Source: Candidatus Absconditicoccus praedator
GTDB taxonomy: Bacteria > Patescibacteriota > Gracilibacteria > Absconditabacterales > Absconditicoccaceae
DNA length: 32,000 nucleotides
Assembly (NCBI RefSeq): GCF_021057185.1
Contig: NZ_CP054059.1
Coordinates: forward strand, 900,001 to 932,000
Reading direction: 5' to 3'
Shown here: positions 9,063 through 27,447 of the stretch, one piece after another
Position numbering within the stretch: the first letter of the stretch is position 1
How the letters are laid out: every line of letters begins with the position of its first letter
Translations under genes and position numbers: made by a program
Notes under the pieces: generated by a model
What the model was told of the DNA's origin: nothing
Seen by the model: the letters and a program-made list of their open reading frames with translations, nothing else
The model's database searches: none

Positions 9063-10379
9063 ATGTACAAAGTATGATGATTTGGTGAATATTCTTATCA
9101 ACAGCAAGAAGTATTAAATAAAATAATTTCTATTATAGAAAAAAATTATAAAAATTTTGGTTATCAAAATATTGATACTCCTGCAGTAGAAAGAAACTCA
9201 ATACTTTTATCAAAGTGATGAGAAGAAACTTCCAAACAAATTTTTGGTCTTTATTGACTTGCTCAAGGTGGTTCAGACTTAAAAGATTATAGTCTTCGTT
9301 TTGATCTAACTATTCCTTTTGCAAGATATGTACTGGACTGGAAAGATAAAATTCCTTTTCCGTTCAAAAGATATCAAATAGATAAAGTGCGAAGAGGAGA
9401 AAGACAACAAAAAGGTAGATTCAAAGAATTTATTCAAGCAGATGTAGATATCATCTGGGATGATGATAAATTTAATAATGTTCTTTACTATGATGCAGAA
9501 GTTGTATTTCTTTTGTATAAAAATTTATCTGATATTATGCAGTCTTTTTGTTTGGAAAATACTCCAGTATTATTTGTTAATGACAAAAGAATAATAGATT
9601 GATTTTTGGATTCAGTTATTGGAGATGATTCTGATAAAAAACAAAAAATGATTGATTTGATTGATAAGTCTGAAAAAATATCCAAACAAAAATTTTTTGA
9701 GCTTGCAGGGCAATTATGCATATCCGAAGAATATGTTCAAAAAATTTATAATTTTATATCAAGACAGGTTACATACAAAGATTTAGATTATATTAGTACC
9801 GAATTTTCAAATGATGTTTTTGCTGAATGAATAAACTCTCTCAAGCTATTTTTATCAAATTTCAATAATATATGAGAAAAATTTGAAATAGATCCAAAAA
9901 TTGTTATAGATTTTTCTATAGTAAGGTGACTGGATTATTATACTTGAATAGTATTTGAAACATTCTTGGATAAAAATAAGTCCACATCCAGTGTTGCTTC
10001 AGGATGAAGGTATGAAAATCTTACTTATTATCTGGATCCCAAAACCAACTTTTCTTGAGTTTGATGAAGTATATGAGTAAGTAGACTTTTTGATTTTATA
10101 AAAGATAGTATTAATTCACAAGGTCATAATAATATAGATTATTTTTTTATCAATTTTGAAGATACTTTTCCTGATGTTGTATCTCTTGCTTACAAATTTA
10201 TTCAAGATTGATATAAAGTAGAAATATATCCAGTTTGTGATAAACTCAAAAAACAAATGCAGCTAGCCAACAGAAAAAATGCCAAAAATGTTGTTATTAT
10301 GTGAGAAAAAGAAAAATTAAACTGAGTATATACAATAAAAGAAATGAGTTCTTGAGAAGAAAAAATTTATAATATATAA
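9063..10379 (+). CDS. hisS: histidine--tRNA ligase
   Basis: 438 aa. Class II motif 2 region FKRYQIDKVRRGERQQKGRFKEFIQADVDI, motif 3 region SGGRYENL, and an anticodon-binding-like C-terminus. The frame is open from TTG 9033, so the start is uncertain by about 10 codons. Confidence 0.85.
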
Positions 10380-10385
10380 TAAAAA

Positions 10386-11072
10386 ATGGAATTAAAAGAA
10401 TTATATGAGTCATGACTACATGAAATATTGGAAAATATAGACTATTCATGAGCTTATACAGTCAAAAGAGAAATTTCCGAAGGGATAGCTATGGTTTTGG
10501 ATGCTAAAAAACTTTCTAATGTTTATGTAGTAGAAAGAAGTTTGACACTTACCAAAACTGATGAAGAATCTTCTTTATGAAGTTTTTTTATTTTGTATAC
10601 TATACAAGGCGACTCAATTGAATGTCATTATCTAAGTCCAGATAGTATTGCTATGTTTGATGATATTATTGTTTGATTTAGTACATATGAAACATCAAAC
10701 TGAGTTTTTTATGAAAACTTTCTAGTTGATAATCAAGAATGAAAGATATATACTTTTGAAAATATTTTTAGGTTTGATAAAGAGTTTGCCAATTTAGTAT
10801 TAAGGTGAGATGAGGTAGTATCGGAAGTATATAGATTTGATGATTATTTTATTTTGATTTTGAATGATTGAAGATATATTTTTCTTAAGATTGAGGATTG
10901 AAAGCTTTTCCCTTGTTATTACAATGATGAGTTTGAATCTCCAAATAAATTTTCAAAAGTATGAAAAAAACATCCAAAGCCGATTTTATTTTTTGAAGAT
11001 TTTGAAGAGTTGTTTTGAAGAGTTGTTTTGAAAGATTTTGAAAGTATATGACTTGAAGATTTGAGTTATTAG
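10386..11072 (+). CDS. hypothetical protein
   Basis: 228 aa. ATG 10386 lies 6 nt after the hisS stop; TAG 11070-11072. No recognisable family. Contains a 13-bp tandem duplication near the 3' end. Confidence 0.55.
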
Positions 11073-11148
11073 AATATTTAATTTAATTTATTGAAAAGTA
11101 GGTATTGTGGATTATTATATTAATATTTAATTAATAATTTTTTATGTT

Positions 11149-12081
11149 ATGGAAAAAGTAATAATTGTATGATCTTGACCAGCCTGACACACAGCTGCTA
11201 TATATACAGCAAGAGCAATGCTAAATCCTATAATGTTTGAATGATATATGGCTTGAGGTGTTACAGCTGGATGACAACTTACTACAACTACAGATGTAGA
11301 AAACTTTCCAGGTTTCCCTGATTGAATTCAATGAACTGAATTAATGAATAAAATGAGGCAACAATCTATAAACTGTTGAACAAGAATATATACAAATACA
11401 GTTACAAATGTAGATTTATCAAAAAAACCATATACTGTTTATACAGATGATTGAAATTCTTATCAAACACAATGATTGATAATAGCTACATGAGCTATAG
11501 CAAAAAAACTTTGAATTCCTGGAGAAAAAGAATTTTGGCAAAAATGAATATCTGCATGTGCAGTATGTGATGGTGGAATGCCAGTTTTCAGGAATAAAGA
11601 ATTGTGAGTTGTTTGAGGTTGAGATGCTGCTGTAGAAGAAGCTATATATCTTACCAAATTTGCCAGCAAGGTATATTTGTTTGTTAGAAGAGATCAACTT
11701 AGAGCATCAAAAGTTCTTCAAGATAGATTAGCTCAGTCCGATAGCATTGAAGTTGTGTGGAATAGTGAGGTGAAAGAAGCCAAATGAGATATGATACTAA
11801 GAAGTATTGTGGTCTACAACAATAAAAAAGATGAATTTTATGAAATGAATATTTCGTGATTATTTTATGCAATATGACATAATCCAAATATAGAATTTCT
11901 ATGATGACAGTTGGAAACAGATGAAGATGGGTATATAATTACTACTCCTGGTACAACACAAACTAGTGTAGATTGAGTTTTTGCTGCAGGTGATGTCCAA
12001 GATAAAAAATATAGGCAAGCAATTACATCTGCATGAAGTTGATGTATGGCAGCCCTAGAACTTGAACACTATCTTTGATAG
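11149..12081 (+). CDS. trxB: thioredoxin-disulfide reductase
   Basis: 310 aa. FAD motif VIIVGSGPAGHTAAIY, in which all three Gly are TGA (11170-11187). Redox centre CAVCDG, NADPH motif VVGGGDAAVEEA, and C-terminal GVFAAGDV. Confidence 0.92.
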
Positions 12082-12108
12082 TGTTTTATTCTTAATTAAT
12101 AGTTTATT

Positions 12109-12852
12109 ATGATTGAAGTTTCTATATTTATACTATTTTGTTATTTTGTGCTGTATTTTCTATCTATAAAACTAAAAAATAATTGAATTGTTGATGTTTT
12201 TTGGTGATTGTGATTTGTTATTATTGCATGGTATACGCTATTGGTGGATTGAACATTTGATTTTGGGCAGATTTTGTTGACATTGATTATTACTATATGG
12301 TGAGTATGGTTAGCAACTTATGTATTTTCTAAAATAAGAAAATCAAAATGAGAAGATTTTCGTTACAATAATTTTCGTAAATTATGGAAATGGTTTTATA
12401 CAAGAAGTTTTTTTCAAGTATACCTGCTGCAATTTTGTTTGATGATGTTGATAGCATCTCCTATATGGGTAGTGAATTTGTATTGATGAGAAAGTATATA
12501 TTATCTTATATGATGAATTATTGCAATTATCTGATTTGCTTATGAATGAATTGCAAACTATCAGTTATATACCTTCAAATCACAAAAAACTAACTCTAAT
12601 ATAATAACAACATGACTTTATAAATATTCTCGTTTTCCTCAATACTTTGGAGAATTACTTTTTTGGTTTTGATTGTGAGTTATGGGTATAGCTACTAGTT
12701 TTTTGTCTATGTTGGGATTTTTTATACTTTTTTTGTTGTTGAATTTTGTTTCTTGAGTGCCATTAATAGAGAAAAAATATCAAGATAATTTGGAATATCA
12801 AAAATACAAAAAAACTACTAGAACCAAGATTATACCCTGGTTTCCCAAATAA
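12109..12852 (+). CDS. DUF1295 / steroid 5-alpha-reductase-like membrane protein
   Basis: 247 aa, polytopic and hydrophobic. Contains RKSKGEDFRYNNFR and GLYKYSRFPQYFGELLFWFG, characteristic of the DUF1295 family. TAA 12850-12852. Confidence 0.7.
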
Positions 12853-12861
12853 ATTTATGAT

Positions 12862-12892
12862 AAAAATCCCCACCAAGCAAACAAGGTGGGGA
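12862..12892. terminator. terminator hairpin between convergent genes
   Basis: Stem tccccacc (12867-12874) / ggtgggga (12885-12892). There is a T-run on the minus strand (aaaaa at 12862-12866), so it is best placed as the terminator of the minus-strand 41-aa gene. It may also serve the plus-strand gene. Confidence 0.65.
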
Positions 12893-12914
12893 AATATGTT
12901 TTCAATATGTGGGT

Positions 12915-13040
12915 TTAGGTAATGATTCTAGCAATTGGTTGTATGACCAAAAAATGCAAAGGAATGCCAATTATGATTCCACCTATCGCTCCCAAAAAAT
13001 AACTGGGTACCAATATTTTAAGGTCTTCAAACAGACTCAT
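12915..13040 (-). CDS. 41-aa hydrophobic peptide
   Basis: MSLFEDLKILVPSYFLGAIGGIIIGIPLHFLVIQPIARIIT. Preceded on the minus strand by aaagaggtgatat-ATG, the clearest Shine-Dalgarno match I noticed in the window. Followed by the hairpin terminator. Confidence 0.5.
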   Translation of the reverse strand: MSLFEDLKILVPSYFLGAIGGIIIGIPLHFLVIQPIARIIT

Positions 13041-13387
13041 ATATCACCTCTTTTTTTGATGTATGAGTTTAATTAAGATATTTATTTTATTTAGAAAATC
13101 AAGAATTGATGAATATTTGATTAGAAAAAATTGAAATTTACTCAAATAAGTCATCACAAGTTTTATCTATTAATTATAAATAGATAAATATTAGTAATAT
13201 ACAAACATAATTTGAGTATTTGCTATCAAGAACAATTTTATAAAAAATGATTGATATAATGTTACATTTCATTGTGTATAATATTGCTTTCCCTGAAGCA
13301 GTTTTTTAAAAAAGGAGTAAGTATGTCAGTTAAGTCCTTTTTGGTAAACCAACCAGGGGCTTTTTAAATTAATATAAATTTTTTGTG

Positions 13388-13440
13388 ATAAAAAAAATAT
13401 TTTATCGTATAAATAATATACGAATGATTTACATATTAAA
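13388..13440 (+). promoter_or_regulatory. conserved upstream element, copy 1 (serpin)
   Basis: Begins exactly 62 nt before ATG 13450. The first 32 nt (ataaaaaaaatattttatcgtataaataatat) match 14807-14838 at 30/32 by manual alignment. TTGTGA abuts its 5' edge. Confidence 0.55.
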
Positions 13441-13449
13441 TAAATAAAA

Positions 13450-14763
13450 ATGTGACAGAAAAAAATACTATTATCAGCTTTGGTGCTTTTGTCTATAATA
13501 TTCTTTACTGGTTGTGATGAACAAGTAAGCAGTGTTGAACCCAAAGACTCAGATTCTAATGGTTCAGATGTATCAGACTCTAATGCTTCAGATTTAGATT
13601 TTTGAGAACCAGAAGATATTGATATTAGTGAAATAGACACAAGTGTTTTGGATACCAAAAATTTTGATTTTGATATATTTTATGAATTGATATGAGAACA
13701 AGTAGAAAAAGATGAAAATTTATTCATTTCTCCATATAGTATCCATGCTGCCTTTTTGTTGGCATATATGTGAGCAGATGGAGAGACTAAAGAACAAATG
13801 TCAGAAGTTCTGGAAACAAAAGGGGTGGATATTAATGATGTAAAGAAAGCATATTATGCTCAAAAAGAAAAATTACAGGATTATTCTACTGAATGAGAAT
13901 TATCAATAGCTAATGCATTGTTTTTGGATCAGGGTATACCTTTTAGAGAAAATTATGTAAAAGATGGGCAAAGATACTTTGATGCAAAAGTTGAGGATAT
14001 GCCAGATATAGTGGATCCAATAAATGAATGGATAGAAGAACAAACAAACTGAAAGATAGAGGATATGTTAGGTGAACCGGGTGAAAAAATTGATCCTTTA
14101 GTAGTAGCTTATTTGATAAATGCAATATATTTTAAAAATGATTGGGAGACCGAATTTGACTCTATTAGAGATATGGATTTTGAAACTCCAGATGGACAAA
14201 AAGAAGTGGATATGATGTATCTTGAAGATGATCACAGATACGTAAAAGAAGAAGAATATCAGATGGTGTCAAAATGATATGAAGATGAAAGTTTTGCATT
14301 TCATGCAATAATGCCAAAACAGGAAACTTTGCAGGAATTTTATGAAGATTTTGATAGGGAAAAGTTTGAAGAAATAAAAACACAAAGAAGGAAATGAGAA
14401 ATTGAATTGTATTTACCAAAATTCACATTTGGCAGTAGTTTGGGATTGGTAGAAGTTATGCAGGATTTATGAATAAAAGATGCATTTGACTCAAGTTTAG
14501 CAAATTTTGATAATATGGTTGATTTAGAAGAATTAGGACAAAATGTATATATAAGCGATGCTTTACACGATACATTCATAGAAGTTAACAAGGAATGAAC
14601 TGAAGCAGCAGCGGCTACAGTTATAGAAATAAGAGCTGAATCAGCTCAACCACCATCTCCAGTATTGAAGTTTGATGAACCTTTTATGTTTATCATAGAA
14701 GAGGAAGAAACCTGACAAATTCTATTTATGTGACAGATGATGGAGCCAGTGATAGAAGAATAA
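13450..14763 (+). CDS. serpin-family protease inhibitor, predicted lipoprotein
   Basis: 437 aa. Signal peptide with lipobox (LSIIFFTGC), an acidic Ser/Asp linker, then a serpin core (NLFISPYSIHAAFLLAY, INAIYFKNDWETEF, LPKFTF). Inhibitory-type hinge EGTEAAAATVIEIRAES, then KFDEPFMFII. Confidence 0.9.
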
Positions 14764-14806
14764 AAATTTGCTTGAATAATCATTTAAAAAGTATAAAATC
14801 ATTGAA

Positions 14807-14860
14807 ATAAAAAAAATATTTTATCGTGTAAATGATATTAGGAATGTTTAATTATTAAAA
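14807..14860 (+). promoter_or_regulatory. conserved upstream element, copy 2 (A2M-like gene)
   Basis: Begins exactly 62 nt before ATG 14869. Near-identical to 13388-13419, with TTGAAA abutting its 5' edge at the same relative position. Confidence 0.55.
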
Positions 14861-14868
14861 CTACAGTC

Positions 14869-17800
14869 ATGTGAACTAAAACAAAGATTAGCTTAATAAG
14901 CACAGCAATAACAGCAATTATAATCACAGCAGGATACCATCTTTTTACCTATGCCAATCTTCATCACATACAAACAGATGAAGAATTCTTGAAATCCCTG
15001 GACTGGATGTATGAAAACGAGCTTACCCAATACAATCAAGTAGAATCTTTTAGACCGGAATTTAATCTTAGAAGAGATGAAGCAGCACATTTCTTTGTAA
15101 ATTTTGTAGAGGAAGGGCTGGAGCAAACTCCAGAGCAAGAAGAGGAAATTCCTGATTTTGCTGATTTAGGTGAAGCACATCAGGACCTAATACCTTCTAT
15201 AGAAAAAGCAGCAGAATATTGACTGATAAGGTGAGATGGTGGCAGCAATAACTTTAGACCAGCAGATCCTATTTCCAGAGCAGAGTTTTTTGCTGTAGCA
15301 GTTAGAGCAGTAGATGGAGAGTATTCAGAAGATACAAACCCTTGGTGGGAGAATTATTTTGAAGCTGCTCAGGAGCTTGATTTAACCAAAGAGTCAGATG
15401 TTATGGCTCAAGACAGAAACATTTTAAGGTATGAAGCAGGACTTGTGCTTTTTAGATCAGTTCATGATGAATGAGAGTATGAATTCCAGCCAAAAGCCCA
15501 AACTATGGAAATTGCATTTGATGAAGAAATGGATCAAGAATCAGTACTTGCAAATATGAAAACTTATCCCAAGGTAGAATATGATGCAAGTTGGGAGGAT
15601 GACAAAACTTTGAAACTTGAAATTTTGGATGATTTTAGCACAGAAGAAACTTTATTGGTAAATATTACCCAAGATGCTAAAACTGCAGCCTGAGAAAACC
15701 TTCCGGAAACATTATCAAGAGAGTTCAAGATAGATGCTACTCCAGAAATTGATTTTGTGTCTCCTAAATGAGATATTCAAGACCCAAATCAGAATATAAC
15801 TGTGAGATTTAGTTCTCCAATGGTTCCTTTGACGGCTCTTGATGACCAGCCAGAATGTCCTATAAGTTTTGATCCCAAGATAGACTGAGAATGTACATGG
15901 ATAACTACTAGTACATTTCAGTTTAGACCAGAAAAAACACTACCATTTGGATGAGAGTATGAGGTGGTTATTCCTTCTTGATTCCAAAATCAAGCTTGAA
16001 ATCCAATAACTGAATCCAAAAATTTCCAGATAAGAACCCCTGATTTTGAAGTTGTAAATACAAATAATAGAATAAACAAAGATGAGCCACTGAAGTTGGT
16101 TTTCAACGATGATGTTGATATGCAAGATGTGATGGATAATTTTGAAATGAGAGGTTATGAAACACATCAGTTAGATTTTGAATTTTGACAAGAAGAAACA
16201 AGTATTGAATGAGAATACAAAACACAAGAAAATATAATAGAAATTTTCCCTGCAGAGTGAGACCGAGGATACGATACTAGTTTAGATTTTAGGATATCTG
16301 ATCAGCTAACTTCTAAAAGATGAAATGTTCCTTTACAAACTGATTATGAAAGTACACTTAGTACAGATGGTTTGGTATTAGAGTATGGCTCTTTTATTTA
16401 TCAGGATCCTGAGCAAGAAGACAAAAACTTAGTTTCAAATCTTCAGCAAGCTGATAATAATAGGATAGTTCTCCCAGAAGATCCAAATATTCTAATAGAA
16501 TTTAATGAAGAAATTGAGTTGGATTATGATCTTTTTGATATAGATTATGATTTTGAACTTTCTTATATCAAAGAACAAGAAAATGAAACTATCCAAGAAA
16601 ATCAAAAATGAGTAATTATTGATATACAGGGGCAGATATCAGACGAATTAAATATAGAAATACTTGCTTCCAATATTAGTTCAAGTGATGATATAACTCT
16701 GGATTTTGGAACCAAGGATTATAATCAAATACAAGACTATGAGATGATAAACTATAAAAAACATTGCTTAACTACATCTCATCATATACCCAGAACTTCC
16801 AGGAACGAAGAAGCTTTTGAGTTTGATGGTTATTGAGAGGTGGAAAGAATACAAATAGTAAGATCACGGATGGATGACAAAGACGAATATGACTGTTACT
16901 ATGAAGAATGAAAAAATAAATATATTCTTGAAACTAATCTTGATCCTGATACTCAATATAATCTTAACATAAGCAGTGATTTGTTGGACAAAGATAACTA
17001 TCCTTTGGATCAGGATTATGAATATCAGTTTACTACTCCAGAAGTCAAAAACGAAGACAAACATGTTGATATTATTGACCAGGAATGACTTGTAATGATT
17101 CCAAGTAGTATCAAACCTTTGACTTTGCCAATCAAATCAGTGAACATAGACACTGTAAATATTAGAGTTTGTGAATGAGAAGTAAATCCTTCCAGGCATA
17201 ATTACATAGACAACAAAGACTGTCAAACTGCCAGAGTAGATGTTGAAAACAAATGATTTCAGCCAAGTTTGAATACTGTTGATCTAGAACAAGTTTTTGA
17301 ACAAGAGTTTGATTCAAATATAGTAAAAGCCAAGGTCTACAAACTTGAAGAAGATATGACAGAATCCCAAAAAGAAAGTTACCAAGAGGATGAATTAACT
17401 CATTCTACCAGAGTTTATAATATAAGTGATGTTACTGCTACCTTGAAAGAGGGTAAAGAAGATATTTTATGGCTCAGAGATTACAACCAATGAGAAAATC
17501 TTGCCAACAATATAGATAATATTACAGCTTATGAAATAAATAGACATCATCGCTGAACACATCCTTCTGTTGTTGGTAGGCATGATATAGATTTTGAACC
17601 AAAACAAAACTGACTTTATGAGTTGGAAAGTATTCCATCAAATTCAGACCTTGTAATAACTTTGGAAAATCAGGATAAAGTACTTGTAACTAATTCCGGT
17701 AATGAACTGTCTGAATGAGATGCCAAAACTTATATTTTTACAGATAGACCTTTGTACAAACCAGGTGATGAAGTAAATATCAAATGAACTGTTAGAAATT

Positions 17801-20800
17801 TTTATTCTGAAGCTTATCAGATACAGGAAGATAGTATACCTTTGAGAGTTAGAGATAGTAGGTGAGAGACTATGATAAGTGAAACTCTTAAGCTGGATGA
17901 GTATTGAAGTTTTCAGGCAGGATTTGATCTTCCTGATGATGCAAATCTTGGTGAATACACTGTAAGAGCTGGTAATGATAATTTGAATTTCAGTGTAGAA
18001 GAGTTTGAAACTCCTGATTTTGAAGTAGAAGCCACTGCCAGAGAGGATGATTATCTTCTGTGAGAAACTGCTCAGGTAGATATTGCCGCAAATTATTATA
18101 TGTGACTTCCTGTAGCCGAGGGTGAGGTAAGCTATGAATTAACAAGTGAAGATTATTATTTTGATTGATGAGGGGTACAAGGTTACCAGTTTGGTGAAAG
18201 AAGAAGTTTTTGGTGGCAACCAGATTCTGGAAGCAGACGTGAAGATAGGTGAGAACTTATATTGGATAATAACTGACAAGCAGTTTTGGATCTTGATCTA
18301 GAAGAACAGGATCAAGAAGACAAGATCTATAATCTATCTTTAAATGTACAGGATCCAGAAAGCTGACAAAATATAGCTCAAAATCTTTCTTTCAAATGAC
18401 TTAGAACTGAAAAGTTTGTAGGTGTGAATTTTGATGATTTTAGTTATGATTATCTGGATACCGCCAATATAGATCTTATAGCAGTTGATATTGATTGAAA
18501 TAGACTATCTCAAAAACAAATAGATTTAGAAGTGAAAAAAGTAGAACATCAACACGATGAAGTTGGTCAACAAAGAGAAACCACCAAAGATACGGTTATG
18601 AGCCAAACTTTGACAACTACTCAAGATGGTACAGTAAATACTGATTTTACTTTTGATGAGCCTTGAGAGTATGAGTTTGTGATAAGCACTCCTGATGGAA
18701 GTTATAAAACCACAAAAACATTTTATGTAGGATGAGCAGATGTATTGTCTCCTGGTCAGGAAGACAATGAAATTAATGTAATTCCTGAACAGCAAACTTA
18801 TGATGTGTGAGACACAATGAGAGCAACAATACAATCTCCTCATACTTGAGTACAAGCTATGCTAACAGTAGAAAAAAACAACAAAATAATGGATTCTAGA
18901 ATAATTGATATTGATGAGTACAATCAGGAAGTACAATTAGAGATCAAAGAAGAGTATATTCCAAATTTTGATATATCAGCATTTATAATAAAAGATGTTA
19001 CAACCATACAAGATGACTTCCAAGACTTAGAAGAAGTAAGAAACGAAATGTCTCAGATAGAACAAGATTTACAAGAAAGATTGGACATCCCAAGAATACC
19101 TGGTCCTCCAATAGTTCCATATTATGATGTAATAATACCACCATTGCCACCAGAAGTTGATGATATGGACGAAGAAGAACAAAATCTTTATGAAGAGTGG
19201 GTGGAACTAAGAGCTCAAGAACAAGAACTTTTATCAAATCTTTTGCCAAGTTATTATGGATGATTAGAAACCATAAAAGTAAATACAGATTATGTGAAAC
19301 TTGATGGACAGGTAAGTTTGGACAAAGAAATGTATGAACCAGGAGATGGTCAAACAATTGATCTTGAAATTACAGACAATGAGTGAAATCCGGTTGATTG
19401 ACAGGCAACAATCAGAGTGATAGACCAGGCTTTGTTGGATATGATGGACAACAAACAGGATATACTTGAGTTTTTCTACTCAAAACAATCAAACAACATC
19501 TCAACATCAAGTAATCTCCAAAATATTATCCAAAGAATTCATTTCCCTGATCAGTTAGATGTTCAGGTGGAAGAAGACTTTGAAACCCAACAAGATGATG
19601 CTCAGTTTTATGGTGAAATTATGGAAGAATCTGCAGATATGCAAGCAGATACCAGATCTGCAACAGAAGATGCTGCTGCTCCTGGGGATGATGAAGCAGA
19701 AGTTAGAGAAGATTTTGAAGATTTGGCATATTATCAGTCAGTAGTAGATGTACAAAACTGACAAGCTCAAATACAAGTAGACCAACTTCCTGATAATCTA
19801 ACTACTTGGGTAGTAGATGGTTTTGTGCATACTCAAGATACCAAAGTAGGGGAGTTTGAAACTGACTTCCAGGTACAAAAACCTATTGGTATATTAGAAC
19901 AAATACCTAGATTCCTGATCTCTGGAGATGAGCTGATAATAGCAGCTCAAATTGCTAACAATACCAATACTGCTCAAAATGTGCAAACCAATCTTGAGAT
20001 TAGCAATGCAACAAATACCAATCCTACTCAGGAAGTAGAAGTTGGACCTTGAGAGACAGAGCCAGTAAGATTTCCTGTAGAAATTGATAGTTTGTGAACT
20101 CAGGATATCAAGAATTTTGAGTCAGAAATTACTATATCTGCAAATGCAGGAGAGTATCAGGATGCAGTAAGACATACAAGAAACATCCAGCAACCAAGTA
20201 CTGCAGAATATGTGTTTACCAATGGTTCTACAGAGGATATAAGTTATGAAGAACAAGTTAAGATCTCAGAGATAATGGAAGAAAACTGATATTTGGAAAT
20301 TACTATGTGAGCAACTATTCTTACCAACCTAATGCACAATCTGGATGATTATTTTAGTTATCCTGGTGAGAGTCTTAGAAGTAGATTGGGATTCCTGGAT
20401 ATAGCTGAAAGTATGAGAAGTTTGTATCAGGGTGTAAACAAACTAGATGAATTTGAAGAAATTACAGTTTATGATAGAGATAATAATGAATATACTACTA
20501 TCCAAGAAGTAGAATCCAAAATCAAAGATGAAATGGATATATATCAAGAAGATGATGGATGACTTAGAAACTTCCAGGATAGTTGTTGGCATACTCGCCA
20601 ATCTTGTAGTAGTTTTGCTTTGTCAAAATCATATCTAGAAATGGATTTGGATATTGATGGAGTAGACAATGAACAGCTACTGGATTATTACAAATCAGAA
20701 CTTGAAGAAAAAATTGAAAGAAGTAGTTCTAACAAGAGAAACATTTCTTATTTTATGCCTTTGGCTGTGCAGTGAGAGTATGATTTTGTAAATGAACACT

Positions 20801-21912
20801 TTGAACCAAGAGATGACCTAAGCAACAAAAGAAAAATACAATATATCAATCTTTATGAGTTGATGCCCGAAGATTGAGAAAGAGCTGATGAGTTTTATGA
20901 AGATCTGAAAAACTCTATATTGATAGAAGCAAGAGGTAGTTTGTTACCGGCAGATTTGGATTATTCAAATAACATTATCTCTACTGCCAAAATGCTACAG
21001 TTGATGCTTGATTATGGAGAAGAAGAAAGACTACAGGTAGAGAATATGGCAAGGTGGCTTTTGGCAAACAGGGACGAAGAATGAGCTTTTCATGCCAGAA
21101 ATATTGTGCCTATCATAGATGCTTTGGACAAATACGTTGATCAAACAGGTGAGCTTGATAATGTTGATTTTGATGCAGCAGCTTATTTTGAAGAAAATAA
21201 TATAATGGAAGCAAACTTTGATATGGACAACAGATTTGGATTAGCTCACGATAAGTTTGATTTCCAAGATTATGTGAATTTTGGGGAAACTCATAGTCTG
21301 TGATTTGAAAAAGATGGAGAGGGTAGGCTTTATTATGATGTAGGATTAAGATACCATATACCAAACGATCAGATTACTCCAAGAGATGAATGAATGATAG
21401 TAAGCAGGAATTATTATGATTATGATGAATACCAAGATGCTCATGAAAGACAGTGTTTTACTCCAATATGGAGATGAAGATGGTGATGATCAAATTGTAG
21501 AAATGTAAGGGTAGAAAATATTGATTCTGTCAGTGAAGCCAATCATGGTGATTTCGTAGTGTGAGAGGTAGAGTTGACTGTTCCTTATGAAAGAAATGAT
21601 GTGGTTTTGAGGGATTATATCCCTTCTGGTGCAGAGGTTTTGAATGTGGATTTTGATACAGTGTGAGATGATGTGGCTGAGGTAGTAGGGCAAACTAGTG
21701 ATAGGCGATGATGATTTGATCATATAGAGCAAAGGAATGATATGGTATATTTGTATGCTGAGCATCTTAGGTCTGGGACATATACTTATACTTATGTAAT
21801 GCAGGCTAGTTATGAAGGTAGCTTCAATGTTCGTCCTGCTAGGGCTGAGGTTTTGGACAGACCAGAGGTTTTTGGTAGGAGTAGTGGTAAGGTTTTTGAG
21901 ATTAGTAGGTAA
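14869..21912 (+). CDS. alpha-2-macroglobulin-family giant surface protein with N-terminal SLH-like repeats and no thioester motif
   Basis: 2347 aa, a single frame-1 ORF under code 25; all nine frame-1 plus-strand track ORFs between 14989 and 21303 are pieces of it. N-terminal signal anchor and SLH-like segments (FADLG..GLIRGDGGSNNFRPADPISRAEFFAVAVRAV). MG-domain signature YIFTDRPLYKPGDEVNIKGTVR. Bait-like acidic stretch followed by REDFEDLAYYQS..LPDNLTTWVVDGF. TED-like helical region, and C-terminal receptor-binding-like end (GTYTYTYVMQASYEGSFNVRPARAE). TAA 21910-21912. Confidence 0.8.
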
Positions 21913-21947
21913 GAGAGGGGAAAAGTTGAAAGTTGAAAGATTAAAAG

Positions 21948-21977
21948 ACCAGCTTCTTGGATGGAGCTGGTTTTTTT
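21948..21977 (+). terminator. rho-independent terminator
   Basis: accagct (21948-21954) / agctggt (21965-21971) followed by ttttttt. Confidence 0.75.
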
Positions 21978-21979
21978 GG

Positions 21980-22008
21980 TTGATAAATTAACAAATTTGT
22001 TTATAAAT
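21980..22008 (+). promoter_or_regulatory. sigma70-like promoter
   Basis: TTGATA (21980-21985), 16/17-nt spacer, TATAAA/ATAAAT (22002-22008). This favours ATG 22046 over the in-frame ATG 22007 as the start. Confidence 0.45.
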
Positions 22009-22045
22009 GCTTAAAAGGCTTTTATTTAGATTATCAAAAGTGCAT

Positions 22046-24010
22046 ATGATCATAATTTTTAATAAAAACGATATATTGCTAGATTTGCTAATTGACTGAA
22101 ATCCAAGAGATATTACGGATGAATATCTAAAAAATATATTAGAAGAACTATATAAATACTGACCAATTGTTCCCCATATAGAAATAAAATGAGAAGAAGT
22201 GAGAATAGAATTAGATATACCATCTATTGAAGAATATGAAAACAAACTACAAGAAGCTACAGAATTTGCTACTCGCTGATCATATCACAAAGCAAGAGTC
22301 TTGATTGATGACTTGTTAGAAAAGTATCCAACTGTATCTGATTTTTATAGAATAAAATGACAAATTTTTTATGAAACTTGAAAACTAGATCAAGCAGAAA
22401 AAAATATAATTGAATGATTAAAGCTAGAACCTGATAACAAATGGTGTTTGGTAGTCTTAGGAAATATTTATCAAAATAAAGGAAAAATTGAATTTGCAAA
22501 AAACTTGTACCTAAAAGCAATCCAAAAAGATCCAAATGATATATATGCACTAACAAATTATTGAGCTGTGAATTTGCAAGAATGAGATTATGAAGAAGCA
22601 GAAGCTTCTCTTGATCAATCTTATAAAAATGATCCTGATTATAATATTACAAACTACAATTTGGCAGTACTTTATAATTATAAAGATCAGTTTTATAAAA
22701 GTTTTTATCATTGAATAAAGGCAATTGAACAATCTCAAAATGATGAGAATATGAAAAATTCTATTATGAAAGTAGTTTTTGATTCTGCAAAGAAATATTC
22801 ATATTATTATTCTGTACAAGAGCTTTATGATAAATACAAACAAGAATTAGAACAAAGATCACAGAAATCAATCCAAGTTAACGAAGACAAAAATTTGCAG
22901 GTATGAGCAATCATAAAAATTGCAGAATATCATTGAAACAATGAACATAAGATTTTTTATAATCCACAAAATCAATACTACAAACATTCTATAATGCATG
23001 AATTAACTCATCTCAAATTGATTGAAGATGCAAGAGACCAAAAAAATAATAAAATATTTGCACAAACCAAAGAAAATCAAGCAAAATTCATAAAAGATCT
23101 AATATGAGAAAGTATGGATTTTTCAAAATCAGCTTATACAAAAGATCAAATTGATTACTTTTCTCAAAATATAAATCTTCAGTTGTACAATCAACCAATT
23201 GATCTAATAATAGAAGAATATCTTTTTGAAAACTATGAAGATATAAGACCAATACAGTTTTTGAATATTGTGAATATGGTAAAACAGTGAGTGGAAATAT
23301 CTAATAATAAAGATATAGAAAAAAGTACTCCCAAGGTGGTATATGAAGCAAATGTAATAATGAATATTGTCCAAGCATATTTTTTGGAAGATTTGTTTAG
23401 TGTAAGTTTCATCAATGAATTCAAGAAAAATAAGCTTATCAGAAAAGCATGGAACATTTATCAGGATTATAAATCAAAAAAGGATAGCTTAGAACCATGA
23501 GATGAATACGAACTTATTAACTATCGAGCAGAAGAGTTGTGATTATCTTGATATTTTAGTTTGATTGATGAAGAAGAGTTTAGTAGTAATGATTTTGAAG
23601 TTACAGACAAGAAAGATGAAGAACCAATAGAGTATGAAAATGTTGATAATTTCAAAAGTGATTATTTTGATATCATCAAAGACTATAAAGATAAATGAAA
23701 AATTGATGAATCTGAGATAAATATGGCTATTGTGATGTATTGTGTATGAGCAATACAATATTTGGAAAATTTAGATTTTGAAAAAATCAAAGAAATTGCA
23801 TTTGAGATATGAATGAAGTGAGCTGGTGGAATATCTTATTGAGATGATACTCAGTATGAACTAAAATCAATTCCTTGAAAAAAGTTTACCTGATATCAGC
23901 TGTTGGCATATATGTATGTTTCTTGGAAAATCATAGAGCCAACTATGGATGTTGGATTGGATTATTCTCAAGAGTATGAGTTAGCAAAAAAGATATTATG
24001 AAAAGCTTAA
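22046..24010 (+). CDS. TPR-repeat protein with an HExxH motif
   Basis: 654 aa. The N-terminal third has TPR-like repeats (..GNIYQNKGKIEFAKNLYLKAIQKDPND..ALTNYGAVNLQEGDYEEAEASLDQSYKNDPD..). SIMHELTHL lies at 22997-23011. The C-terminal half is unrecognised. TAA 24008-24010. Confidence 0.6.
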
Positions 24011-24016
24011 AAAAAA

Positions 24017-24044
24017 TTGACAATATTTTTTCAAAGATTAAAAT
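24017..24044 (+). promoter_or_regulatory. sigma70-like promoter of the KAP / MazG / DUF2075 operon
   Basis: TTGACA (24017-24022), 16-nt spacer, TAAAAT (24039-24044), 30 nt before ATG 24075. Confidence 0.5.
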
Positions 24045-24074
24045 TAGCTTAATTTTACCTCAAATTGAAATGAA

Positions 24075-27000
24075 ATGGTAGATGAGTCAAAAAAACTATA
24101 CAAAATTAATGGTGAAGAAATACAATGAGTTGATACAAAGTTTGGAAATGCGTGAGAATTATCCTCAGAAAAAGCAAAGATTAGATGAGTTATTAAGTGG
24201 ATAATAGATAGAGCTTATGAAAAATGATTTTCAAAAGATTGGATTCAAGAGGCTCTTGATAATTATATAAATTATGGATCTTGAAAAAATAAAGAAAAAA
24301 ATGAAAATACATATAGAGAAATCAAGGTGTCTATATATAACAACTTGGAAAATAATAAAAATAATTTAAAAAAGTTTTTTAGAGGTGAGAATAATACAAA
24401 AAAATTATGAATTCGAAGTGTAATAATAGATTGAGAAGAACTGTTAAATTCTTCTATACTAGATAAATTAAATATAGTTATTTTTGAGCTATCAAATAGT
24501 AGTAGAAAAAATGCTAAGACACTATATAATACAAGGAAAAACGAGAATAATGAGGTTTTAAATTTCTTTGCATGGGATGATAAATTTTGAAAAAATACTA
24601 AAGAATGAGATTTAGTATTTTTTGTTAATAAATCTGCAAAAGAAGAAAATGATGAGTTTTCTATTCTGGTAACAAGAATATATGATAGATGATATGAACT
24701 AAAAAATAAAAATAATGACCAGAATCAAAAATTTTACTATTTAGAAAAAGATGGAAATCAAAAAAAATTATATTATATATGAAATGAAGAAGATGCTCCT
24801 GAATGAGTTGATAATAGTAATAATTTATCAAAATGGGAATGGTCAGAAAATAATCAAAAAACTTTTGTTGTTTTTGAAGTTTTATATGAAATCAGAAATA
24901 TTACTGATTGGAGCTGATATAGAAACTTAGGTGCTGCTCAGTTTACTTATATAAAAAGTCTATATGATGATAGACTTCAATTTATTATAGAGACATTAAG
25001 AAATAATTTATCTGAAAATTTAAAAGATAAAAATTTTTTAAACGTTTATATTAACTCTTTAGATGTTCCTTTATGAGATGTTGATATTTATTATGAAGAT
25101 AGTAATGATAATAAGTCTATAAATATTTGGTGAAGATTCTTTGATAAGGTTAATAAAGATAAAACTTCAACAATTATTTTTGATGTTATAAATCGATATA
25201 ACATTTGATTTGAATCAGATATTAGTTATAGAAAACAATTATTATTATGATTGATTATATCATTCAATAAAGATTATGAGGATTTTATTAAACTATTACT
25301 AGCAGATATATACATTAGATATCTTAGAGGAAAGTCAGTATGACAGAAATATCCTTGAAATTTTAACTTTAATTGATGATGTATAAATATAAATTGATTT
25401 AAAGAATTATTAACTTTAAATATTAAAGAAAAATTATGAGAAAACGACTTATCATTACATGACAATGAAAATGAAAATTATTATACTATAGAAAAAAATG
25501 AAGAAAATAAAGAAATTGTTCAAATATTTGAATCCGATGATATAACAGAAGGTTTTAAAAGTTTTCTTGATTCAATATCAATAAAATTTGATTATATATA
25601 TCTTGCTAAATCTTACCAACAAATTAAGAATATTGTTGAAAAATATAAAACTTGAGAAAACAAAGAAGAGGATCAGAAATCATTTAGTGTATGAATTATC
25701 TGAAAATGGTGAGAATGAAAAACGAAACTTGTAAGTCTTTTGAAAGAGTATTATTTAGAAAATGAGAATTATAGTGTCTATGAGGTAGATGTATGGAAAT
25801 GATACTCCATAAACTGAGTAGAAACAGAAAAAAAGTGATTTATAAAATATATTTACAGAAAGTTAATAGAAAAAGAATTATGATATGAAGAATATAAATA
25901 TTGAAAATCCATAACTGATAAAATAAAAAACTCTTATATTTGAATATTGATAACATTTTTAACTAAAACTATATTCTTTTTATTTTTCTTCATAATTGAG
26001 AGTTTTTTAAAAACTTTTTATAATAAAACTTATTTTGGTAACTATTATACTTCTTCATCATTAAAACAATTAAATTTGAAATACTATTATGATAAGTTGT
26101 ACAATAATATCTTCTTGTATCAAAGATTTTCTTATGCGAAGTTTTTCTTTATATTTTATGTTTTTGGTTTGATATTTTTCATTTTCACTTATAATTTAGA
26201 ATGTCTTATATACTTTGAGTGTCTAGAAAAAGAATCTTTAGAACAGGCTGAATATATTCCTGAGTATATAAAAGAAAATGAGTATATAATTACTTTTTTA
26301 TTATTAATTCCTTTTTTTATTTTGTTTTTGTATAAGTATTGATTTAAGACTAATATTTATGACAAGCAAATACAGGATTCTAATTTGGCAGATAAATTTG
26401 GTAATGAATTATTTAATATTATTTGAGATAACAATAAAAAAATAATAATTCTTGAAAATATTGATAGACTAAATCCAGATCAAATAATTGATGTGATAGA
26501 TCTCACAAAAACAGTTTTGGACTTCCCAGATACTGTATATATAATTCCAATAGATCCAAATTTAGTTAAATGTTGACTAGAAAATAAGTATAAGGACTTC
26601 AACGGACAATCAAAAGAAGCATTTAATCCAGATTTATATTTGGATAAAATAATACAATTCCCCTACTATTTAGTTAACCCTTATCTTTTAAATATAAAAA
26701 AAATAACGAAAAAAGAAATTGAAAAATTTAATTTAAAGTTATATTGATTTTTGTCAACTATATCACAAGATAATGATGATTTTAAAAGATTTGAGAGTTA
26801 TTTTGATCATCTTGACTTTAAAAGAAGAGTACTTTGTAATTATAATCCTAGAAAAGAACAAATATTTAATCAAATAAAAAAAGTGTATTCAGAAATATAT
26901 AATAATGCTATTGATTATTATAATGTTAAAAATAATAATAATGAATTCTATCAAAGATTGTTTTATAATGAATTCTATCAAAGATTGTTTTATAATGAAT

Positions 27001-27419: not shown

Positions 27420-27447
27420 TTTATTTTAATAATAATTAATAGTTACA

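What the first reader, a model, noticed from the sequence alone, without database searches (positions are those of the whole stretch)
13388..21912. Tandem protease-inhibitor pair (lipoprotein serpin + giant A2M-like protein) driven by a duplicated upstream element
**Seen in sequence.**
- A serpin with an inhibitory-type hinge (GTEAAAAT) and a lipobox is immediately followed by a 2347-aa alpha-2-macroglobulin-family protein with SLH-like wall anchors.
- Both ATGs are preceded at exactly 62 nt by the same element: 30/32 identical bases, then looser similarity. A TTGNNA hexamer sits at the same relative position in each.

**Established knowledge.** Bacterial A2M genes are classically paired with pbpC, not with serpins. 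Bacterial serpins are sporadic.

**Inference.**
- The shared element implies co-regulation of two mechanistically different surface protease traps.
- For an episymbiotic or predatory CPR cell, this could protect against host or prey proteases, or against the cell's own secreted ones.
Basis: partly seen in the sequence, partly recalled or inferred. Interest (0 to 1): 0.65.

Follow-up and report, generated by a model that had tools for sequence, protein, structure and literature searches.

The report
Serpin borrowed neighbouring macroglobulin gene's promoter
In a tiny predatory-type bacterium that reads UGA as glycine, a membrane-tethered serpin sits directly upstream of a giant wall-anchored macroglobulin-like protein, and each gene has its own copy of one unusual promoter; this makes co-regulation of two surface protease inhibitors likely, but both protein families are known and the pairing occurs in only one narrow lineage.

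Summary
Under genetic code 25 the window encodes a 437-aa lipoprotein serpin (13450..14763) and a 2347-aa SLH-anchored alpha-2-macroglobulin-family protein (14869..21912). A 32-nt element (30/32 identical) starts 62 nt before each ATG; chance expects 0 copies.

The element is the core of a ~80-nt direct repeat, ~120 nt in the close relative L002, where it begins inside the serpin's last codons. Inside it lies a two-block skeleton, TG[AT][AG]AT-N16-CGT[AG]. The same skeleton occurs once, just upstream of the A2M orthologue, in serpin-less relatives including Vampirococcus lugosii (P≈5e-4 and 9e-4), with an unconserved spacer. It is unlike the genome's ordinary TTGAMA-N16-TAnnnT promoters and resembles ECF sigma-W promoters (TGAAAC/CGTA).

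Best reading: an ancestral specialised A2M promoter was duplicated to drive the serpin.

Caveats:
- The pairing exists in only two independent genomes.
- The A2M clade has lost the thioester.
- No further element copies could be sought in the rest of the genome.
- The sigma factor is unidentified.

The A2M orthologue was already described in Vampirococcus. Interest is moderate.

The parts
13363..13440 (+). Direct-repeat copy 1 (promoter plus most of the leader) upstream of the serpin
   Evidence: BLAST of the serpin upstream spacer against the window: 13363-13440 vs 14783-14859, 81% over 79 nt, E=7.6e-13. The repeat ends 9 nt before the ATG.
13384..13409 (+). Two-block promoter-like skeleton, copy 1: TGTGAT-N16-CGTA
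   Evidence: Pattern search. Homology between the window and L002 begins exactly at 13384. No sigma70-type -35/-10 pair lies upstream of this copy.
13388..13419 (+).
   Evidence: exact match to the degenerate 32-mer, with 0 expected by chance. It starts 62 nt before the ATG at 13450.
13450..14763 (+). Serpin gene (437 aa, code 25) with N-terminal lipoprotein signal (Cys22) and an acidic linker of about 45 aa
   Evidence: Pfam Serpin E=7.9e-90, full length. Lipobox FTGC. Closest solved structures: conserpin, antithrombin, bacterial serpins, miropin, tengpin.
14596..14661 (+). Serpin hinge and reactive-centre loop (GTEAAAATVIEIRAESAQPPSP, residues 383-404)
   Evidence: Inhibitory-type hinge. The loop is rewritten in L002 (GTEAAAVTTVETSGFYSADPPSP) within a high-dS recombinant segment.
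14772..14799 (+). Ordinary sigma70-like promoter candidate (TTGAAT-N16-TAAAAT) immediately upstream of skeleton copy 2
   Evidence: L015 has an analogous TTGTTT-N16-TATAAT. No equivalent exists upstream of the window's serpin copy or in Vampirococcus.
14783..14859 (+). Direct-repeat copy 2 (promoter plus most of the leader) upstream of the A2M gene
   Evidence: In L002 the repeat is about 120 nt at 114/120 identity and starts at the serpin's last five codons plus stop.
14803..14828 (+). Two-block promoter-like skeleton, copy 2: TGAAAT-N16-CGTG
   Evidence: Matching skeletons occur at L015 5934-5959 (TGAAAT-N16-CGTA) and Vampirococcus L016 5923-5948 (TGTAAT-N16-CGTA), each the only hit in its locus.
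14807..14838 (+). 32-nt core element, copy 2
   Evidence: It starts 62 nt before the ATG at 14869.
14869..21912 (+). Giant alpha-2-macroglobulin-family gene (2347 aa, code 25): signal/TM, SLH region, Big_5, MG2, bMG5, bMG6, bait-region domain, A2M, diverged TED-like region, bMG10
   Evidence: Pfam. Clade P0121-P0142 includes Vampirococcus lugosii alpha-2-macroglobulin at 45% identity and full length. Profile hits to human A2M, C3/C4/C5 and YfhM.
14971..15408 (+). SLH wall-anchor region of the A2M protein (about aa 35-180)
   Evidence: Pfam SLH at aa 97-140, E=7.9e-7, above the cutoff. Clade profile positions 35-179 match the SLH domains of SpaA (6cwr) and positions 54-155 match Sap (3pyw, E=4e-8).
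20359..20382 (+). Site homologous to the thioester motif: YPGESLRS (aa 1831-1838) where canonical A2Ms have YPYGCxEQ; no thioester
   Evidence: Alignment of the clade with distant homologues. No CxEQ anywhere in P0121-P0142, while 13 of 14 distant homologues have it.
21939..21981 (+). Intrinsic terminator after the A2M gene (GACCAGCUUC/GGAGCUGGU hairpin plus U7)
   Evidence: Fold of 21913-22006: -22.7 kcal/mol, z=-3.26, 0 of 200 shuffles as stable. The serpin-A2M spacer has no such structure (z=-0.61).

Best explanation
The locus is one transcription unit: P1, serpin, P2, A2M-family gene, terminator. P1 and P2 are paralogous copies of a single promoter-plus-leader module.

Shown:
- The functional core of the module is a two-block element, TG[AT][AG]AT, 16 nt, CGT[AG].
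- The element is ancestral to the giant A2M gene in this branch of Absconditabacteria.
- A segmental duplication, still about 120 nt long and nearly identical in the relative L002, placed a copy in front of the serpin.

Inferred:
- Both genes answer to the same RNA polymerase holoenzyme or regulator and are co-expressed.
- The skeleton differs from the genome's housekeeping promoters and matches the architecture of ECF (sigma-W-type) promoters. The most likely controller is therefore an alternative, envelope-stress-type sigma factor.

Products (anchoring read from sequence, function inferred):
- The serpin is a lipoprotein with an inhibitory-type hinge, held on an acidic tether at the outer face of the membrane.
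- The A2M-family protein is a 2347-aa thioester-less protein held on the wall by SLH domains.
- Together they would shield the envelope of an epibiotic or predatory cell from proteases. The serpin would act by covalent suicide inhibition. The A2M protein would act, if at all, by non-covalent entrapment or as a sacrificial coat.
For: Repeat:
- 2 copies of the 32-mer against 0 expected.
- The repeat is about 80 nt in the window and about 120 nt at 114/120 identity in L002. There it includes the serpin's terminal codons, so the serpin-proximal copy derives from the A2M-proximal one.

Skeleton:
- The pattern was defined from the window's two copies only.
- It occurs exactly once in L015 (A2M 64% identity, no serpin) and once in Vampirococcus L016 (45%, no serpin), each 41-52 nt before the A2M ATG.
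- Chance of a match in those 120 nt is 5e-4 and 9e-4. The CG of the CGTA block is the only CG dinucleotide in each stretch.
- The two blocks are invariant in the six-way alignment while the spacer is not, as expected for -35/-10 recognition.
- Window/L002 homology upstream of the serpin starts exactly at the first block. That copy has no other promoter candidate.

Contrast with ordinary promoters:
- Eight other window genes carry TTGAMA-N16-TAnnnT. A sigma70 reading of the skeleton needs a 19-nt spacer and a defective -10.
- ECF sigma-W promoters are TGAAAC and CGTA, with ECF spacers of 14-17 bp (PMC5758882).

Transcription unit: no terminator or stable structure between the genes, a strong terminator after the A2M gene, and unstructured leaders.

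Proteins. A defensive anti-protease role was already proposed for the Vampirococcus orthologue (PMC8080830).
Against: - No transcription data exist, and no transcription start site is mapped.
- The -35 block ends in AAT, not the AAC that is the most conserved feature of ECF promoters.
- No ECF sigma gene was seen in about 130 kb of related DNA fetched, and none is reported for Vampirococcus.
- The A2M copies in the window, L002 and L015 have a sigma70-like promoter immediately upstream. The skeleton could therefore lie at +1 to +26 and act as an operator or leader element.
- The same loose pattern also hit an unrelated 52%-GC genome, overlapping an A2M start codon, so chance hits do occur.
- Orthologues at 37-38% identity use ordinary promoters.
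- With no terminator between the genes, P1 alone could express both.
- The A2M protein lacks the thioester and may not inhibit proteases at all.
Confidence: 0.55

Rival explanations
1. The conserved skeleton is not the promoter. It is an operator or 5'-leader site for a DNA-binding regulator, lying just downstream of an ordinary sigma70 promoter, or within a 19-nt MerR-type spacer between TTGNNA and TATAAA. Co-regulation would still follow, but through a repressor or activator and not a sigma factor.
For: - Sigma70-like promoters lie directly upstream of the skeleton in the window's A2M copy (14772-14799, TTGAAT-N16-TAAAAT), in both L002 copies and in L015 (TTGTTT-N16-TATAAT).
- TTGNNA plus 19 nt plus TATAAA/TATATA/TATTAT can be read in the window's serpin copy, both L002 copies, L015 and L016. 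MerR-type promoters have 19-bp spacers (discussed in PMC5758882).
- The window spacer contains a 10-bp palindrome, AAAATATTTT (read directly from the sequence).
Against: - The window's serpin copy and Vampirococcus have no usable upstream sigma70 promoter.
- The spacer and its palindrome are not conserved in L015 or L016; only the two outer blocks are. That is the opposite of what a spacer-bound dyad operator predicts.
- The window's A2M copy has TGTAAA at the 19-nt position, which lacks the critical A2 and T6 of a -10 hexamer.
Confidence: 0.2
2. The repeat is a neutral by-product of a recent tandem duplication or gene conversion around the serpin and has no regulatory meaning of its own. Serpin and A2M are simply co-transcribed as an operon, or each uses other signals.
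For: - The repeat in L002 includes non-regulatory sequence (the serpin's last codons), and its two copies are 95% identical, as expected for recent conversion.
- Divergence across the locus is mosaic (dS 0.04-0.56), showing frequent recombination.
- There is no terminator between the genes.
- Window/L002 background divergence is too low for conservation between them to be informative.
Against: - The skeleton inside the repeat is conserved upstream of A2M orthologues at 64% and 45% protein identity, where the surrounding noncoding DNA is essentially unalignable.
- In the window the flanks of the repeat have decayed to about 80% or less, while the 32-nt core stays at 30/32.
Confidence: 0.15
3. 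The direct repeats are attachment-site-like scars of a mobile serpin cassette, inserted or excisable by recombination between the repeats.
For: - Direct repeats of about 120 nt flank exactly one gene in L002.
- Synteny upstream of the serpin breaks exactly at the repeat between the window and L002.
- The serpin is absent at this locus in L015 and Vampirococcus.
- Recombination between the repeats would excise the serpin cleanly (inference).
- Transposases occur elsewhere in the window.
Against: - No integrase or recombinase is adjacent to the pair.
- The repeat is the A2M gene's own ancestral promoter region, not foreign sequence.
- The nearest serpin relatives outside this lineage are below 50% identity and not on mobile elements.
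Confidence: 0.05
4. The element is a generic promoter or dispersed repeat of this genome, present upstream of many unrelated genes.
For: Only 32 kb of a 1.13 Mb genome could be examined. AT-rich promoters look alike.
Against: - There is no third copy of the 32-mer in the window at up to 3 mismatches. Even the 8-mer TTTATCGT occurs only in the two copies.
- The other window promoters are of a different type.
- The one extra skeleton hit (30390..30365, minus strand, inside a gene) is compatible with the chance expectation of 0.13.
- Scans of public genomes and metagenomes returned only chance hits with unrelated flanks.
Confidence: 0.05

Closest known systems
Vampirococcus lugosii Vamp_6_203 (2368-aa alpha-2-macroglobulin; Moreira et al. 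2021, PMC8080830)
   Same: Full-length orthologue at 45% identity. It has the same SLH, Big_5, MG2, BRD, A2M and bMG10 architecture, also lacks CxEQ, and carries the same TGNAAT-N16-CGTA skeleton upstream. The paper proposes a defensive role against host proteases.
   Different: No serpin is adjacent; secA and a class-A PBP lie upstream. The paper and its held supplement do not mention a serpin.
E. coli YfhM (ECAM) / Salmonella A2M with PbpC
   Same: A2M-family multi-MG-domain envelope protein, homologous at the profile level, thought to protect the envelope from proteases (own knowledge).
   Different: - Those are inner-membrane lipoproteins of about 1650 aa with a CLEQ thioester, genetically paired with pbpC.
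- Here the protein has 2347 aa, an SLH anchor, no thioester and no PBP in the window; the partner is a serpin.
- An unrelated control locus, L034, shows the classical thioester A2M next to a PBP.
Thioester-less bacterial A2Ms (E. coli YfaS, Pseudomonas aeruginosa MagD of the mag operon)
   Same: A2M-family protein without the CxEQ thioester, so any inhibition must be non-covalent (for this protein; own knowledge for MagD and YfaS).
   Different: No mag/yfaPQAT-type partner genes are present. This is a different clade, SLH-anchored, in a cell without an outer membrane (inferred). The sequence relationship to MagD was not tested.
Miropin of Tannerella forsythia and other bacterial serpins (tengpin, thermopin, Bifidobacterium serpin)
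   Same: Bacterial inhibitory-type serpin. Miropin is likewise a surface lipoprotein thought to protect the cell from host and neighbour proteases (own knowledge). Miropin (5ncs) and tengpin are among the closest solved bacterial structures.
   Different: Only family-level similarity. This serpin carries a 45-aa acidic tether, is paired with an A2M gene under a duplicated promoter, and its reactive-centre loop differs sharply between two close strains.
Bacillus subtilis sigma-W-type ECF promoters (TGAAAC-N16-CGTA)
   Same: Two short blocks, a 16-nt spacer, a CGTA/CGTG -10 block and a TGAAA/TGTAA -35 block, driving envelope-protective genes (PMC5758882).
   Different: The -35 block ends in T, not the near-invariant C of AAC. 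No cognate ECF sigma or anti-sigma gene was identified. The organism is a CPR bacterium with 29% GC.

Membership tests
Serpin superfamily, inhibitory class | Full-length serpin fold by sequence | tested here: met
   Pfam PF00079 E=7.9e-90, profile 4-370/370. 163 PDB serpins at E<1e-20.
Serpin superfamily, inhibitory class | Hinge consensus P15-P8 (G-T/S-E-A-A-A-A-T, small residues at P12-P9, no Pro) | tested here: met
   GTEAAAAT at residues 383-390. The P15 Gly is TGA-encoded.
Serpin superfamily, inhibitory class | Forms a covalent complex with a target protease; identity of P1 | not testable with these tools
   By spacing from P15, P1 would be Glu in the window and Phe in L002. This is a prediction only.
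Bacterial lipoprotein | Signal peptide ending in a lipobox with an invariant Cys | tested here: met
   MGQKKILLSALVLLSIIFFTGC: hydrophobic core followed by F-T-G-C22. Identical in L002.
Bacterial lipoprotein | Lgt and LspA processing enzymes encoded in the genome | not testable with these tools
   Only 32 kb of the 1.13 Mb genome is available.
Alpha-2-macroglobulin / thioester-containing protein family | MG-domain array with MG2, bait-region domain, A2M domain and C-terminal MG10 | tested here: met
   Pfam MG2 3e-20, bMG5, bMG6 4e-9, A2M_BRD 5.5e-11, A2M 9.8e-14, bMG10 9e-17. Profile hits to human A2M, C3-C5 and YfhM.
Alpha-2-macroglobulin / thioester-containing protein family | CxEQ thioester in the TED | tested here: not met
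   No CxEQ in the window protein or in any of P0121-P0142. The homologous site reads GESLRS. 13 of 14 distant homologues keep YPYGCxEQ. Pfam TED is not detected.
Alpha-2-macroglobulin / thioester-containing protein family | Protease-sensitive bait region and conformational trapping | tested here: inconclusive
   The bait-region domain is detected and carries a long insert (aa 1303-1525 for a 140-position profile). An acidic low-complexity stretch follows. No cleavage data exist.
Classical bacterial A2M-PbpC module | Adjacent pbpC-type penicillin-binding protein gene | tested here: not met
   No PBP in the window. Vampirococcus and L015 have PBP genes 2-3 genes upstream.
MagD/YfaS-type thioester-less A2M operon | Thioester absent | tested here: met
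MagD/YfaS-type thioester-less A2M operon | Co-operonic magA/B/C/E/F (yfaP/Q/A/T) partner genes | tested here: not met
   The neighbours are DUF1295, the serpin and a TPR protein.
SLH-anchored cell-wall protein | SLH domain(s) at a terminus | tested here: met
   Pfam SLH 29.4 bits against a 20.8 cutoff at aa 97-140. Clade profile positions 35-179 match the SLH regions of SpaA (6cwr) and Sap (3pyw, E=4e-8).
SLH-anchored cell-wall protein | Pyruvylated secondary cell-wall polymer (CsaB) in the organism | not testable with these tools
   The whole genome is not available.
ECF sigma-factor-dependent promoter | -10 block CGT[A/C/G] and a 14-17 nt spacer | tested here: met
   CGTA or CGTG after exactly 16 nt in all six instances (window x2, L002 x2, L015, L016). 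Consensus from PMC5758882.
ECF sigma-factor-dependent promoter | -35 block containing AAC | tested here: not met
   The blocks are TGAAAT, TGTAAT and TGTGAT: AAT or GAT, never AAC.
ECF sigma-factor-dependent promoter | Cognate ECF sigma (and usually anti-sigma) gene in the genome, often autoregulated from the same motif | not testable with these tools
   None in the window or in the fetched related loci. L033 shows only an RpoD-type sigma. The source genome could not be retrieved.
Regulon defined by the 32-nt element | Further copies upstream of other genes | tested here: inconclusive
   None in the 32-kb window. Collection scans found only chance hits. About 97% of the genome was not examined.

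The most novel reading that the evidence does not exclude
Absconditabacteria possess a dedicated, ECF-like envelope-defence regulon. Its ancestral target is the giant SLH-anchored, thioester-less A2M surface protein. One lineage enlarged the regulon by duplicating the promoter onto a newly juxtaposed lipoprotein serpin. The serpin's reactive-centre loop is then exchanged between strains by recombination, in an arms race with host or prey proteases. This would be the first described stress-type promoter class and regulon in a code-25 CPR predator, and a natural example of regulon growth by promoter duplication.
Probability: 0.2. Interest if true: 0.6.

Novelty: new variant of a known kind. Interest (0 to 1): 0.4.

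Why it matters
- **Co-option through the promoter.** If correct, a reduced episymbiotic or predatory bacterium expanded its surface anti-protease defence by copying the promoter of an existing defence gene onto a second, mechanistically different inhibitor. That is a compact, datable case of regulon growth by promoter duplication.
- **Support for the A2M role.** A canonical protease inhibitor was wired to the same control as the giant thioester-less A2M-like surface protein of Absconditabacteria. This gives independent guilt-by-association support for the A2M protein being protease-related, which so far has only been assumed.
- **A testable promoter class.** The two-block TGNAAT-N16-CGTR motif is a concrete candidate for a non-housekeeping promoter class in CPR bacteria, whose transcriptional regulation is almost unknown.
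- **Limits.** Both proteins belong to well-known families, the A2M orthologue is already published, and the pairing is confined to a very narrow lineage.

Tried and rejected
1. **Further copies in the source genome.** A genome-contig scan with the 21-mer core gave 11 single hits in unrelated taxa. The metagenome-contig scan gave 11 hits with unrelated flanks, several inside a conserved coding region. The source genome is in neither collection.
2. **Sampling more of the source genome through its IS transposases.**
   - Every window gene contains in-frame TGA.
   - The last homology search returned only a TGA-as-Trp version on a collapsed 1.3-kb contig.
3. **L001 as independent evidence.** Rejected: it is base-for-base identical to the window over 20.7 kb.
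4. **"Noncoding more conserved than coding" between the window and L002.**
   - Rejected once the A2M gene proved 95% identical at nucleotide level and dS proved mosaic.
   - The database identities of 97% and 77% are deflated by TGA read as Trp.
5. **Positive selection on the serpin.** Not supported: omega is 0.34-0.38. The excess divergence comes with high dS, indicating a recombinant segment.
6. **RNA element in the leaders.** No Rfam hit, and the leaders fold no better than shuffles.
7. **Duplication reaching into the signal-peptide coding region.** Rejected (P=0.98).
8. **Spacer homology to L015 and Vampirococcus, to decide between serpin gain and loss.** Only marginal (P=0.012 and 0.021), so left open.
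9. **Other checks.** NCBIfam gave no hits for either protein. The Vampirococcus supplement has no sigma or serpin entries. The literature search found no bacterial serpin-A2M operon.

Full report
**1. Reading frame and organism**

Under the standard bacterial code the region is shredded into short ORFs. Under code 25 (UGA=Gly) the window resolves into long, mostly + strand genes. They include a 437-aa ORF at 13450..14763 and a 2347-aa ORF at 14869..21912.

Evidence for UGA=Gly over UGA=Trp:
- Three of the most conserved serpin glycines are TGA-encoded.
- At the 61 TGA codons of the large gene, standard-code homologues have Gly 42% and Trp 1.3% of the time.
- Of the 13 TGA sites in strongly conserved columns, 12 are Gly. 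TGG aligns with Trp.

The window has 28.6% GC. The large protein's named orthologue is the alpha-2-macroglobulin of Candidatus Vampirococcus lugosii (45% identity, full length). The source is therefore an Absconditabacteria (SR1) relative. Its serpin is on record on a 1.13 Mb contig.

**2. The observation**

All stated features are present.
- **Serpin.** The protein matches Pfam Serpin end to end (E=7.9e-90). It has the inhibitory hinge GTEAAAAT, a signal peptide ending in the lipobox FTGC22, and an acidic linker of about 45 aa.
- **Large protein.** Pfam finds SLH, Big_5, MG2, bMG5, bMG6, A2M_BRD, A2M and bMG10. A profile of its clade matches the SLH domains of the S-layer proteins Sap and SpaA over positions 35-179, and also human A2M, complement C3-C5 and E. 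coli YfhM.
- **Element.** The 32-nt element lies at 13388..13419 and 14807..14838 and is 30/32 identical. Each copy starts 62 nt before its ATG and is preceded by TTGTGA or TTGAAA at the same offset. It has no other copy in the window at up to 3 mismatches, with 0 expected by chance. Even the 8-mer TTTATCGT is confined to the two copies.

**3. What the element is part of**

The 32-mer is the best-preserved core of a longer direct repeat. In the window the repeat spans 13363-13440 and 14783-14859 (81% over 79 nt). It stops 9 nt before each ATG. The coding regions share nothing beyond ATGTGA (P=0.98).

Two other assemblies carry the pair.
- **L001** is identical to the window over 20.7 kb. It is the same genome and not independent evidence.
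- **L002** is a close relative: A2M protein 92% identical, serpin 79%. Its repeat is about 120 nt at 114/120 identity, and it begins at the serpin's last five codons and stop codon. The copy upstream of the serpin must therefore have been copied from the region upstream of the A2M gene after the serpin was in place. A tandem duplication with loss of the upstream serpin copy, or gene conversion, would do this.
- Homology between the window and L002 upstream of the serpin starts exactly at the TGTGAT that opens the element. Further upstream the two genomes are unrelated.

**4. The conserved functional core**

A2M orthologues without an adjacent serpin were fetched: L015 (64%), Vampirococcus L016 (45%), L017/L018 and L019 (37-38%) and L033 (38%).

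A pattern defined only from the window's two copies, TG[AT][AG]AT-N16-CGT[AG], behaves as follows.
- It occurs exactly once in L015 (TGAAAT-N16-CGTA) and once in L016 (TGTAAT-N16-CGTA). In both it lies 41-52 nt upstream of the A2M ATG.
- Dinucleotide-preserving shuffles of the 120 nt upstream give a match with P=5e-4 and 9e-4.
- The CG of the CGTA block is the only CG dinucleotide in each of those stretches.
- In the six-way alignment the two blocks are invariant, while the 16-nt spacer is conserved only within the window/L002 lineage.

That is the signature of a two-block promoter, not of a dyad operator or an RNA motif. Most of the 30/32 identity therefore reflects how recent the duplication is. 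The selected part is shorter.

The more distant orthologues use ordinary TTGATT-N16-TATAAT promoters.

One caution: the same loose pattern also hit an unrelated 52%-GC genome (L034), overlapping an A2M start codon where it cannot be a promoter. Chance hits do occur.

**5. Promoter type**

Eight other window genes have TTGAAA/TTGACA-type -35 boxes, a 16-nt spacer and TAnnnT -10 boxes ending 13-35 nt before the ATG.

The skeleton does not fit that type. A sigma70 reading needs a 19-nt spacer and a -10 that lacks the final T (TATAAA) in the serpin copy, or both critical positions, A2 and the final T (TGTAAA), in the A2M copy.

Its architecture matches ECF promoters of the B. subtilis sigma-W type: -35 TGAAAC, -10 CGTA, with ECF spacers of 14-17 bp (PMC5758882). 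The exception is the final C of the AAC motif, which is T here.

I could not identify any alternative sigma factor.
- The window has none.
- Only an RpoD-type sigma was seen in related loci.
- The Vampirococcus paper and its held supplement do not mention sigma factors.

The ECF assignment is therefore a resemblance, not a membership.

A rival reading places the skeleton just downstream of an ordinary promoter, as an operator. Such a promoter exists in the window's A2M copy (14772-14799), in L002 and in L015. It is absent from the window's serpin copy and from Vampirococcus.

**6. Transcription unit**

- The serpin-A2M spacer has no terminator or stable structure (z=-0.6).
- Both leaders fold no better than shuffles, and Rfam finds nothing.
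- A strong hairpin plus U-tract follows the A2M gene (21939-21981, z=-3.3).

The layout is thus P1-serpin-P2-A2M-terminator. Read-through from P1 is likely.

**7. The proteins**

The whole Absconditabacteria/Gracilibacteria A2M clade (P0121-P0142) lacks the CxEQ thioester. The homologous site reads GESLRS (aa 1833-1838), whereas 13 of 14 more distant homologues keep YPYGCxEQ. Pfam does not detect a TED. Any inhibition must be non-covalent, as in thioester-less bacterial A2Ms (own knowledge), or the protein may serve mainly as a surface coat. The Vampirococcus authors proposed a defensive anti-protease role for the orthologue Vamp_6_203 (PMC8080830).

The serpin is canonical. Its reactive-centre loop differs sharply between the two strains: TVIEIRA-ES in the window and VTTVETSGFYS in L002. 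By spacing from the hinge, P1 would be Glu and Phe respectively.

Divergence along the locus is mosaic.
- dS is 0.07 in serpin codons 1-160 and 0.56 in codons 161-400.
- dS ranges from 0.04 to 0.35 across the A2M gene.
- Omega is about 0.3-0.4 throughout.

This indicates exchange of divergent alleles by recombination, not simple positive selection.

**8. Distribution**

The pairing is confined to the window/L002 lineage.
- Serpins at 46-49% identity come from a non-recoded, 39%-GC lineage. They sit in a conserved murB/secA neighbourhood, or elsewhere, with no A2M gene.
- No paper describing a bacterial serpin-A2M operon was found.
- It remains open whether the serpin was gained in this lineage or lost from L015 by recombination between the repeats. 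Spacer similarity to the outgroups is only marginal (P=0.012 and 0.021).

**9. Verdict**

- The co-regulation inference is plausible. It gains support from the finding that the serpin carries a copy of the A2M gene's ancestral, non-housekeeping promoter.
- Still unproven: a wider regulon, the identity of the regulator, and the protease-trapping activity of the thioester-less A2M protein.
- The pair is not co-conserved beyond one narrow lineage.
- This is a new arrangement of known components, of moderate interest.

Noticed in passing
window 1..32000: The whole window uses genetic code 25 (UGA=Gly). Every one of the 20 genes has 2-61 in-frame TGA codons, and all 20 genes end in TAA or TAG. Public protein databases hold some of these proteins translated with TGA as Trp, which deflates reported identities by about 2.7%.
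   Followed up: yes
window 13930..14650 (serpin codons 161-400) and 16669..17868 (A2M codons 601-1000), compared with L002: Divergence between the two close strains is mosaic. dS is 0.56 in the serpin body including the reactive-centre loop, against 0.07 in its first 160 codons. dS is 0.22-0.35 in A2M codons 601-1000, against 0.04-0.10 elsewhere. Omega is about 0.3-0.5. This points to recombinational exchange of divergent alleles of both surface proteins.
   Followed up: partly
window 632..1048 and 1229..1657 (+): Two tandem paralogous small membrane-anchored proteins (138 and 142 aa, 41% identical, E=5e-34). Each has its own sigma70-like promoter. Neither has a Pfam match, and their function is unknown.
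   Followed up: partly
window 24075..29660 (+), with 2139..2969 (-) and 30668..31849 (+): A defence-like cluster lies downstream of the pair. It contains a 1114-aa KAP-family P-loop NTPase with PADLOC PifA/QatA-like hits and a 619-aa Schlafen-type/DUF2075 helicase with PDC-S41/AbiO/Nhi-like hits. The window also carries an rve-family integrase and an IS4-family transposase.
   Followed up: partly
A2M clade alignment A1; window about 20560..20610 (DSCWHTRQSC, from about aa 1900): The TED-like region that lost the thioester carries a conserved cysteine pair: C1913 is invariant and C1905 nearly invariant (P0122 numbering). Further invariant cysteine pairs occur elsewhere (C326/C338, C629/C669, C761/C778, C2196/C2209). 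This suggests structural disulfides in an extracellular protein.
   Followed up: no
L016 1..2408 and L015 672..3107; L034 11678..13840: The Vampirococcus A2M orthologue lies two genes downstream of a class-A PBP, with secA between them. In L015 the A2M gene lies three genes downstream of a transpeptidase. This may be a loosened remnant of the classical A2M-PBP linkage. L034, an unrelated thioester-bearing A2M, shows that linkage intact.
   Followed up: no
window 30365..30390 (-) and L034 4976..5001 (+): Two extra matches to the promoter skeleton appear to be chance. One lies on the antisense strand over the 3' end of a gene in the window (0.13 expected). The other overlaps the start codon of an unrelated A2M gene in a 52%-GC genome.
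   Followed up: yes
window 12853..13383: The 600-nt spacer upstream of the serpin contains hairpins followed by T-runs, at about 12866-12890 and about 13287-13310. It also holds a possible small hydrophobic ORF on the minus strand (…MSLFEDLKILVPSYFLGAIGGIIIGIPLHF…). None of this is shared with L002.
   Followed up: no
L033 4880..4930: A 38% A2M orthologue with an ordinary TTGATT-N16-TATAAT promoter also has TGTCAC-N15-CGTT just upstream. This may be a decayed relic of the two-block skeleton, or it may be chance.
   Followed up: no
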